A stretch of 32,917 nucleotides of DNA from the IMG/VR virus record IMGVR_UViG_3300026549_000035, positions 1 through 32,917 of that record; one strand, 5' to 3'. The notes beneath the pieces are model-generated. The model searched no databases, was not told the DNA's origin, and worked only from the letters and a program-made list of their open reading frames with translations. This document shows, piece after piece, positions 1 through 276 of this stretch (positions are counted from its first letter, which is position 1; each line of letters starts with the position of its first letter). This DNA is from a virus. The position numbers were made by a program, and so were the translations under genes.

Positions 1-87
1 TTTTTTTTTTTTTTTTTTTTTTTTTTTTTTTTATTTTTTTTTTTTTTATTTTTTTTTTTTTTTTTTTTTTTTTTTTTTTTTTTTTTT
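1..87. repeat. Homopolymeric poly(T) tract, 87 nt, with two A interruptions at positions 33 and 48
   Basis: Read directly from the sequence. Lies immediately downstream (minus-strand sense) of a consensus promoter at 97-125. Confidence 0.9.
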
Positions 88-96
88 GATGTATTT

Positions 97-125
97 ATTA
101 TAACACACTTTATTAGAAATGTCAA
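97..125 (-). promoter_or_regulatory. Sigma-A type promoter (TTGACA, 17 bp spacer, TATAAT) firing toward the poly(T) tract
   Basis: Minus strand reads TTGACAtttctaataaagtgtgtTATAAT. Positions 97-140 nearly duplicate the promoter block at 1113-1160. Confidence 0.6.
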
Positions 126-276
126 TAGTTTTCGGGAAAATTTTTTCTCGATTGCGCCCGGGCCAAATCAAAACAAAAAGAGCTAAATGGCTAGCCTCGT
201 GAAAATTCGACCGCATCGCGGTCTGTGTCGGTCACCATTCAGCAGGTGACTTTTCACAAAAGTCTTTTAATGGACA

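What the first reader, a model, noticed from the sequence alone, without database searches (positions are those of the whole stretch)
1..140. 87-nt poly(T) tract at the window edge, with a consensus promoter firing straight into it
The promoter at 97-125 duplicates the promoter at 1122-1150, but its downstream gene is replaced by T87. The transcript would be essentially poly(A). This could mark a genome terminus or terminal repeat boundary, a homopolymer created by library preparation, or a misassembly.
Basis: seen in the sequence. Interest (0 to 1): 0.5.

Follow-up and report, generated by a model that had tools for sequence, protein, structure and literature searches.

The report
Giant poly(A) run breaks phage assembly
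The T-run at the window edge is one side of a very long A/T homopolymer inside a ~183-kb gut/rumen phage genome, sitting between a strong early promoter and its still-present gene at a spot where relatives have only 3-9 A's; it stops short-read assemblers, and it is not a genome end or a lost gene.

Summary
Positions 1-87 are T32-A-T14-A-T39, not pure T87. A perfect extended -10 promoter (TTGACA-17-TGnTATAAT, 125-97, minus strand) fires into the run. It is one of 31 such promoters, and 1122-1150 is its closest sibling (83% identical).

The interpretation mostly fails. An independent MEGAHIT contig of the same strain (99.98% identical, 177,555 bp) ends at the identical junction, CATC + A31GA18. 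In the same sample, a second contig starts with A47 followed by an RBS, a 91-aa gene, an 82-aa gene and an HD-hydrolase gene. The two flanks abut exactly an A9 run in the closest relatives, and other relatives carry A3, A5 or A6 there.

So the gene is not replaced and this is not a terminus. It is an internal poly(dA·dT) tract, at least ~87 bp long, in a 5' leader starting about +4 of the predicted transcript. It most likely grew by replication slippage and now breaks assemblies.

The tract is probably seen in only one library and no reads were available. Its true length is therefore open, and an in-vitro artefact seeded on a real A-run is not excluded. Function is unknown. The encoded mRNA would carry a long 5' poly(A) leader.

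The parts
1..87 (-). Left-hand part of a hyper-expanded poly(dA·dT) tract. It reads as poly(A) on the transcribed minus-sense RNA: A39 T A14 T A32 going away from the promoter. The window, and probably the source contig, ends inside it.
   Evidence: The same junction is in L006/L012 (CATC + A31 G A18). The complementary side is in L026 (A47 + RBS). The flanks abut the A9 run of L022 exactly.
88..96 (-). Discriminator and initially transcribed sequence AAATACATC. The predicted transcription start is the A at position 90, the 7th nt after the -10 hexamer, so the tract starts at about +4.
   Evidence: Read directly from the sequence. The module TATAATAAATACATC(A3-4) recurs at several promoters of relatives. 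Family leaders share an A-C-A at positions 5-7 after the -10. The start site is inferred, not measured.
97..125 (-). Extended -10 sigma-70/sigmaA-type early promoter: TTGACA, 17 nt (including TG), TATAAT.
   Evidence: 12/12 consensus, TG present. It is a member of a 31-copy family against 0.09 expected.
156..163 (.). GCCCGGGC palindrome about 31 nt upstream of the -35 hexamer. It is one of 11 copies, all in the early region. Relatives without the inserted genes start to diverge from the window just next to it (GGGCGCA|).
   Evidence: 11 copies against 0.12 expected. The breakpoint is visible in the alignments.
232..348 (-). Upstream 38-aa Cys-rich ORF with a conserved in-frame TAG at codon 24. 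It is the last gene before the promoter.
   Evidence: Gene calls.
368..619 (-). 83-aa AbrB/MazE-like early gene, used as the anchor to fetch related contigs.
   Evidence: PF04014 weak; phrog_4681.
1122..1150 (-). Closest sibling promoter. It has the same TATAATAAATACATCAAA module, followed by T-AAAAAGGGGAAATG and a 122-aa gene.

Best explanation
The T-run is the edge of a real, internal, hyper-expanded poly(dA·dT) tract in the roughly 183-kb genome of a TAG-recoded phage.

**Where it sits.** It lies in the 5' untranslated leader of an early operon. Immediately before it is a consensus host-type promoter (predicted start at window position 90, tract from about +4). Immediately after it is the ribosome-binding site GAAAGGAAAT of a 91-aa gene. 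An 82-aa gene follows, and then an HD-hydrolase gene with its own promoter.

**How it arose (inferred).** Relatives carry A3, A5, A6 or A9 at exactly this position. In this strain the run expanded to at least about 87 bp, most plausibly by slipped-strand mispairing during phage DNA replication.

**Why the window ends here.** Short reads cannot be carried cleanly across such a run, so every assembler stops inside it. That is why the window and contig begin with poly(T).

**Consequence (inferred).** The mRNA would start 5'-AUC, then a long poly(A), then the RBS. The distance from the -10 hexamer to the start codon grows from the family norm of about 31 nt to at least 112 nt. This could change translation or stability of two small early genes, or it could simply be a tolerated runaway repeat in a dispensable, mosaic gene slot.

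**Shown:** the tract is internal, the gene is retained, the allelic series exists, and the flanks are exact. **Inferred:** the slippage origin, the transcription start site, any effect on expression, and that the tract exists at this length in virion DNA.
For: 1. The same-strain contig ERZ27252065:k141_7166 (177,555 bp) is 99.98% identical over 10.6 kb. It is colinear with the window out to 27.6 kb with an offset of 37 nt, which equals 87 minus 50. It ends at the identical junction, AAATACATC + A31GA18.
2. In the same sample, k141_718151 starts with A47 + GAAAGGAAATAAAACAATG and carries the 91-aa, 82-aa, HD and following genes.
3. The window's left flank aligns to relative L022 up to position 1444 (CATC). 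The L026 flank aligns from position 1454. The two flanks therefore abut exactly L022's A9 run at 1445-1453, with nothing else gained or lost.
4. There is an allelic series at the same promoter and gene: A3 (L011, L013, L028, L036-39), A5 (L031), A6 (L035) and A9 (L022-24). The alleles with the longest runs have the leader most like this strain's.
5. All strain-specific window proteins and all L026 proteins are recorded on one JGI/IMG contig of 183,113 bp. Both flanks therefore belong to one genome, whose assembly is open only at the tract.
6. Four other A9/T9 runs in the window assembled normally, and no run of 11 or more exists in 185 kb of relatives. This argues against a generic homopolymer artefact.
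Against: - The long tract was found for one strain only. The JGI contig, the ENA MEGAHIT contigs and a Logan contig of run SRR7971122 may all derive from a single library, so the agreement may be between assemblers rather than between libraries.
- The interruptions differ between assemblies: two T's in the window's poly(A), one G in L006, none in L026. That looks like read error or length heterogeneity, and the true length is unknown.
- To my knowledge, homopolymers of this length are not described for phage genomes, which raises the prior for an artefact.
- No reads, coverage or long reads could be inspected. The JGI contig itself could not be fetched.
Confidence: 0.65

Rival explanations
1. 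In-vitro or sequencing artefact seeded on a real but short A-run. The strain's DNA would have roughly A9-A20. Amplification slippage, or chimeras with abundant poly(A)/poly(T) molecules such as carrier nucleic acid, would then have produced reads with long A-runs anchored on both flanks, and the assemblers followed them.
For: The tract is probably seen in only one sample and library. The interruptions are inconsistent between assemblies. A real A-run exists at this site in relatives and could seed such an artefact.
Against: If normal A9-spanning reads dominated, the assemblers would have joined the flanks, as they did in L022-24. Instead, two assemblers ended both contigs 47-87 nt inside the run. 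Four other A9/T9 runs in the same window were crossed without trouble. PCR stutter changes a run by a few nt, not about 80 (general knowledge).
Confidence: 0.2
2. RNA-level phenomenon. The library would contain cDNA, and the long poly(A) would be added by reiterative transcription (RNA polymerase slippage) on a short A-run at +4, as in poxvirus late mRNA leaders, rather than being encoded in DNA.
For: The run starts about +4 of the predicted transcript, which is the geometry of known reiterative-transcription sites such as upp and codBA T-runs (general knowledge). The right-hand contig (A47 + RBS) would fit a 5' end of this kind.
Against: The left-hand contigs join at least 40-91 nt of promoter and upstream DNA, which lies before the start site, directly to 50-87 A's. 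Transcripts initiated at this promoter cannot supply that. A gapless 177-183 kb contig that includes all non-transcribed promoter regions is what DNA gives, not RNA. There is no indication that the samples are metatranscriptomes.
Confidence: 0.05
3. Physical genome terminus or terminal-repeat boundary, or a gene deleted and replaced by the homopolymer.
For: The tract is at the contig and window edge in two assemblies. SPO1-like phages keep promoter-dense early modules in terminal repeats (general knowledge).
Against: The gene and the rest of the early region continue beyond the tract in the same sample. Eight or more relatives are continuous across the site. Both flanks end in the same homopolymer and fit an A9 run exactly, which is not how a terminus looks.
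Confidence: 0.03

Closest known systems
Slipped-strand homopolymeric tracts (simple-sequence contingency loci), e.g. the Mycoplasma hyorhinis vlp promoter poly(A) and the poly-C/G tracts of Neisseria, Haemophilus, Bordetella and Campylobacter
   Same: A mononucleotide run next to a promoter whose length differs between closely related strains while the flanks stay fixed (A3/A5/A6/A9/≥87). Slippage during replication is the accepted mechanism for such length change.
   Different: Known tracts are about 8-25 nt and sit in the -35/-10 spacer or inside an ORF, where length switches expression. This one is at least 87 nt, lies in the 5' leader after the start site, belongs to a phage, and has no evidence of reversible switching.
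5' poly(A) leaders and reiterative transcription (poxvirus intermediate/late mRNAs; E. coli pyrBI, codBA, upp; B. subtilis pyrG)
   Same: A homopolymer run begins within the first few nucleotides of the transcript. The resulting mRNA would carry a long 5' poly(A) head before the RBS.
   Different: In those systems the extra residues are added by polymerase slippage on 3-8 template bases. Here the leader is, apparently, encoded in the DNA. No NTP-sensing or translational role has been tested.
Homopolymer or low-complexity contig ends in short-read metagenome assemblies
   Same: The contig stops inside a homopolymer, and the sequence there contains read errors. The window edge owes its position to assembler behaviour.
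   Different: The run is anchored on both sides to unique sequence that is adjacent in relatives. It also replaces a pre-existing A-run exactly, so it is not a free-floating low-complexity tip.
Host-takeover early modules of SPO1-like (Herelleviridae-type) Firmicutes phages, and TAG-recoded gut phages such as phAss-1 (PMC10607447)
   Same: Many small early genes each have their own near-consensus host-sigma promoter and strong RBS. A phage sigma factor sits at the start of the late genes. TAG is read through in late genes. Structural proteins are distantly similar to phAss-1 and to Enterococcus phages of about 140 kb.
   Different: There is no nucleotide match to any GenBank phage. None of those genomes is reported to carry a comparable homopolymer.

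Membership tests
Genome terminus / terminal repeat boundary | The sequence ends at this point, and relatives and same-sample contigs do not continue across it. | tested here: not met
   L026 continues on the far side in the same sample. L022-24, L013, L028, L035 and L036-39 are continuous through the site.
Genome terminus / terminal repeat boundary | A matching unique-sequence repeat at the other genome end, or a read-start pile-up at the terminus. | not testable with these tools
   No reads are available. The 183,113-bp JGI contig could not be fetched.
Slipped-strand homopolymeric tract (contingency-type simple sequence repeat) | A long mononucleotide run far beyond what composition predicts. 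| tested here: met
   85 of 87 bases are T. The next-longest run in the window is 9, and there is none of 11 or more in 185 kb of relatives.
Slipped-strand homopolymeric tract (contingency-type simple sequence repeat) | Length polymorphism at the same site between related strains, with conserved flanks. | tested here: met
   A3, A5, A6, A9 and at least 87 between CATC and the RBS of the same gene. The flanks abut exactly.
Slipped-strand homopolymeric tract (contingency-type simple sequence repeat) | The tract is placed where its length sets expression (promoter spacer or reading frame) and switches reversibly. | tested here: inconclusive
   The tract lies in the 5' leader (about +4 to the RBS), not in the -35/-10 spacer or in an ORF. 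Switching and within-population heterogeneity cannot be tested without reads or experiments.
Assembly or sequencing homopolymer artefact | The homopolymer has no counterpart in homologous sequence and no partner contig on the other side. | tested here: not met
   It replaces an A-run that is present in relatives. A same-sample contig starts with the complementary part of the tract.
Assembly or sequencing homopolymer artefact | Absent from independent libraries or long reads of the same DNA. | not testable with these tools
   Only assemblies are available. The JGI, ENA and Logan records may share one library.
Sigma-70/sigmaA extended -10 promoter | TTGACA, a 17-nt spacer, TG at -15/-14 and TATAAT. 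| tested here: met
   12/12 consensus with TG at 125-97, minus strand. Activity and the start site were not measured.
Reiterative-transcription control site (pyrBI/codBA/upp type) | A homopolymer run of 3 or more within the first ~10 transcribed nucleotides. | tested here: inconclusive
   This holds if the start is at position 90, as predicted from the -10 position and the conserved ACA. The start site and NTP dependence were not measured.

The most novel reading that the evidence does not exclude
The tract would be a genuine, DNA-encoded 5' poly(A) leader of 90 nt or more, and possibly a hypermutable length switch, on a phage early 'host-takeover' operon. It would have evolved stepwise (A3 to A6 to A9 to about 90 or more) because an unstructured poly(A) head, or polymerase slippage on it, tunes translation or stability of these mRNAs. 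That would make it a bacterial-virus counterpart of poxvirus poly(A) leaders. It would also be, to my knowledge, the longest homopolymer documented in a phage genome.
Probability: 0.1. Interest if true: 0.65.

Novelty: new variant of a known kind. Interest (0 to 1): 0.35.

Why it matters
**Practical.** A homopolymer at a contig end need not mean a genome terminus or a lost gene. Here a partner contig in the same sample, together with the relatives, resolves it. A poly(T)/poly(A) 'terminal repeat' on such a contig should not be read as evidence for a physical end or for completeness.

**Biological, if the tract is real at this length.** It would be an extreme case of slippage-driven repeat growth in a virus that replicates without obvious constraint on that leader. 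It would also give a natural test of what a very long 5' poly(A) leader does to bacterial transcription (slippage), translation initiation and mRNA decay. The A3/A6/A9/long allelic series supplies ready-made comparison constructs.

Tried and rejected
- **GenBank phages.** Megablast of 88-6000 found no match.
- **Exact-pattern scans.** Scans for the promoter/junction in IMG/VR, JGI metagenomes and GTDB genomes gave only L011, a distant relative with A3, and an unrelated giant-virus hit, L050. None had a long tract.
- **Rfam.** The whole window gave only tRNA-Lys, so there is no known RNA in 126-367.
- **tRNA scan.** Only tRNA-Lys(UUU) was found, with no suppressor tRNA in the window.
- **Direct look-up of the L001 HD protein.** I went round it through homologue searches and cluster listings.
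- **The P0145 relative in IMG/VR.** None was found.
- **Poly-Lys-extended partial proteins.** I searched for them as a way to find other samples whose contigs begin in the tract. None are indexed.
- **Fetching the 183,113-bp JGI contig.** It is not in the look-up index.
- **Literature.** Searches for the run accession and for long homopolymers in phage genomes returned nothing pertinent.
- **Rejected: terminus or terminal repeat.** Relatives and L026 continue across the site.
- **Rejected: gene replaced.** The 91-aa gene is present.
- **Rejected: chance.** The run is far too long.
- **Rejected: generic homopolymer assembly failure.** Other A9/T9 runs in the window were crossed.

Full report
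**1. What is in the sequence.**
Window positions 1-87 read T32 A T14 A T39. That is 85 T and two A (at positions 33 and 48), not a pure T87. The next-longest homopolymer in the 32,917-bp window is 9 nt. About 185 kb of related loci fetched later contain no run of 11 or more apart from this same tract. The run is therefore far beyond chance.

Directly to its right, on the minus strand, lies a perfect extended -10 promoter:
- TTGACA at 125-120.
- A 17-nt spacer carrying TG at -15/-14.
- TATAAT at 102-97.

After the -10 hexamer come nine bases, AAATACATC (96-88), and then the run, which reads as poly(A) in the direction of transcription. Judging from the -10 position and the A-C-A shared by the family's leaders, the start site should be the A at position 90. 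The run would then begin at about +4. This is an inference; for the leaders.

**2. The promoter is a family member, not a one-off duplicate.**
The pattern TTGAC-N15-TGNTATAAT, with at most one mismatch, occurs 31 times against 0.09 expected. Twenty-six copies are on the minus strand between 97 and 14766, and each precedes a small gene.
- The median distance from the -10 hexamer to the ATG is 31.5 nt, through purine-rich leaders.
- The copy at 1122-1150 is the nearest in-window sibling, 40/48 identical.
- The module TATAATAAATACATC followed by A3-4 recurs at several promoters of relatives.

The wider context is a phage:
- Small early genes lie on the minus strand.
- A phage sigma-factor gene sits at 16031.
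- Structural genes on the plus strand only form long ORFs if TAG is read through.
- The structural proteins are distantly related to the TAG-recoded gut phage phAss-1 and to Enterococcus phages of about 140 kb (PMC10607447).
- Sample names of the relatives (STEW18-1, STEW19-1) suggest, by my reading of the labels only, the Stewart rumen metagenome studies.

**3. What lies beyond the run.**
Exact-protein look-ups with the 83-aa and 122-aa early genes returned many related contigs.
- Most are about 95% identical. They diverge from the window just left of the GCCCGGGC motif (about position 150). In them a slightly different promoter runs straight into a 203-aa HD-domain gene.
- One contig, ERZ27252065:k141_7166 (177,555 bp, MEGAHIT), is 99.98% identical to the window over 10.6 kb. 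At 27.6 kb it is colinear with an offset of exactly 37 nt, which equals 87 minus 50. It ends at the identical junction...TATAATAAATACATC + A31 G A18.

The junction is therefore reproducible between assemblers.

**4. The other side of the tract.**
Two relatives carry an extra pair of small genes between this promoter type and the HD gene: L011 (a JGI metagenome contig) and L013. I searched with the 82-aa protein of that pair and then listed cluster members. This produced variant P0145. Its only retrievable contig is ERZ27252065:k141_718151 (6,447 bp), which comes from the same sample as k141_7166.

That contig begins with A47, then GAAAGGAAATAAAACA-ATG. It carries a 91-aa gene, the 82-aa gene, a promoter, the HD gene and further early genes. 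The downstream gene is therefore present, and the homopolymer is internal.

**5. It is a pure expansion of a pre-existing A-run.**
The closest relatives with the same promoter (one mismatch) are L022, L023 and L024, from three different assemblies. They read CATC-A9-GAAAGGAAATAAAATA-ATG.

BLAST places the window's left flank up to L022 position 1444 (the C of CATC) and the L026 flank from position 1454. The flanks thus abut exactly the A9 run at 1445-1453.

Other relatives at the same promoter and gene carry:
- A3: L011, L013, L028, L036-39.
- A5: L031.
- A6: L035.

This gives an allelic series A3/A5/A6/A9/≥87. The longer runs occur in the alleles whose leader (GAAAGGAAAT...) matches this strain's.

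**6. One genome.**
All strain-specific window proteins tested, and all L026 proteins, are recorded on a single JGI/IMG contig of 183,113 bp. The JGI protein versions are the standard-code truncations that the window also gives: 259 aa and 163 aa, against 349 aa and 193 aa in the ENA calls.

The window is therefore very probably the start of that contig. The genome would be about 183 kb, and its assembly would be open only at the tract. This is an inference, because the contig itself could not be fetched.

**7. Interpretation.**
Shown:
- The run is not a terminus.
- The gene is not replaced.
- The window edge is where assemblers stop inside a homopolymer.

Most likely, at about 0.65: the strain's DNA really carries a poly(dA·dT) tract of at least about 87 bp, grown by slipped-strand mispairing from a short A-run. 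Three observations favour this over an artefact:
- The flanks are exact on both sides.
- Relatives show an allelic series at the site.
- No A9-type joining path exists in that sample, whereas four other A9/T9 runs in the same window assembled normally.

The main caveats are these:
- The JGI, ENA and Logan (SRR7971122) records may all come from one library.
- The interruptions differ between assemblies, which points to read error or heterogeneity.
- The length is unresolved.

An in-vitro artefact seeded on a shorter real run therefore keeps about 0.2. An RNA-level origin (reiterative transcription captured as cDNA) is unlikely. The left-hand contigs join 40-91 nt of promoter and upstream DNA directly to the run, and transcripts starting at this promoter cannot provide that sequence.

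**8. How it would work (inferred).**
Transcription from the consensus promoter would give 5'-AUC-poly(A)-GAAAGGAAAUAAAACA-AUG. This is a bicistronic early mRNA with a very long unstructured poly(A) head. The distance from the -10 hexamer to the ATG is at least 112 nt, against about 31 nt for the family.

A run of dT in the template this close to the start is the geometry at which bacterial RNA polymerases slip (upp, codBA, pyrBI; general knowledge). RNA length would therefore probably be heterogeneous.

Whether expression rises, falls or is unaffected is unknown. The gene slot is mosaic and dispensable: it is absent in the L001-type relatives and differently filled in L011. A tolerated runaway repeat is consequently the economical reading.

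**9. Comparison and novelty.**
In kind, this is a slippage-prone homopolymeric tract. It differs from described contingency tracts in three ways:
- Length: at least 87 nt against fewer than about 25.
- Position: the 5' leader, rather than the promoter spacer or an ORF.
- Host: a large recoded phage.

It works like, but is not a member of, the systems with 5' poly(A) leaders, because here the leader is encoded in the DNA. I rate it a new variant of a known kind. Interest is moderate to low until reads or long reads confirm the tract.

Noticed in passing
window 16031-32917 (+ strand); also 232-348 (-): Late and structural genes form long ORFs only if TAG is read through: total ORF length is 18.8 kb under the standard code and 33.9 kb with TAG recoded. 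The early 38-aa Cys-rich ORF at 232-348 also has an in-frame TAG at codon 24, conserved in L011 and L013. No suppressor tRNA is in the window.
   Followed up: partly
window 97-16001: There are 31 near-consensus extended -10 promoters (TTGAC-N15-TGNTATAAT) against 0.09 expected. 26 are on the minus strand, and each precedes a small early gene with a purine-rich leader of about 31 nt. This is a dense SPO1-like 'host-takeover' layout, and a phage sigma-factor gene starts the opposite-strand late block at 16031.
   Followed up: partly
window 156, 1161, 2851, 4811, 5803, 6637, 8298, 9411, 10574, 11386, 12949: The 8-nt palindrome GCCCGGGC occurs 11 times against 0.12 expected. All copies are in the early region, either about 30 nt upstream of a -35 hexamer or inside a promoter spacer. 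It is a candidate operator or recombination hotspot. One copy sits next to the point where relatives lacking the extra genes diverge from the window.
   Followed up: no
window ~3745-3889 and ~6450-6595 (-), also 6171-6199: Two promoters with a TATACT -10 are followed by leaders that are 88% identical over about 95 nt, with no ORF nearby. A third promoter, at 6171-6199, also lacks an ORF. These are possible small RNAs. Rfam gave no hit.
   Followed up: no
window 4001-4075 (-): tRNA-Lys (anticodon UUU) is embedded among the early genes. It is the only tRNA in the window.
   Followed up: no
window 14235-14350: A CT-rich imperfect repeat block (TCTCTCTCTCTCTCTTTGCTTCTCT and variants, 5 copies) lies in the early region.
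   Followed up: no
window 723-1565 vs 3049-4492 (-): A two-gene cassette is duplicated and diverged: a 122-aa protein 'MNEKIQSL...' / 'MNEERIQKL...' and a 122/121-aa protein 'M..KMTN(R/K).AL...'. The copies are 77% identical over 300 nt, and the promoter/leader copies at 1562-1666 and 4489-4593 are 90% identical.
   Followed up: no
L001-L039, region homologous to window 1-160: The slot between the 38-aa ORF and the HD gene is a mosaic hotspot. It is empty in L001-type strains. It holds 89-91-aa and 82-aa genes in L013, L022 and L026. It holds a 139-aa membrane protein plus the 82-aa homologue in L011. It carries an extra 80-aa gene in L028. In L036-39 the pair sits downstream of the HD gene instead.
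   Followed up: partly
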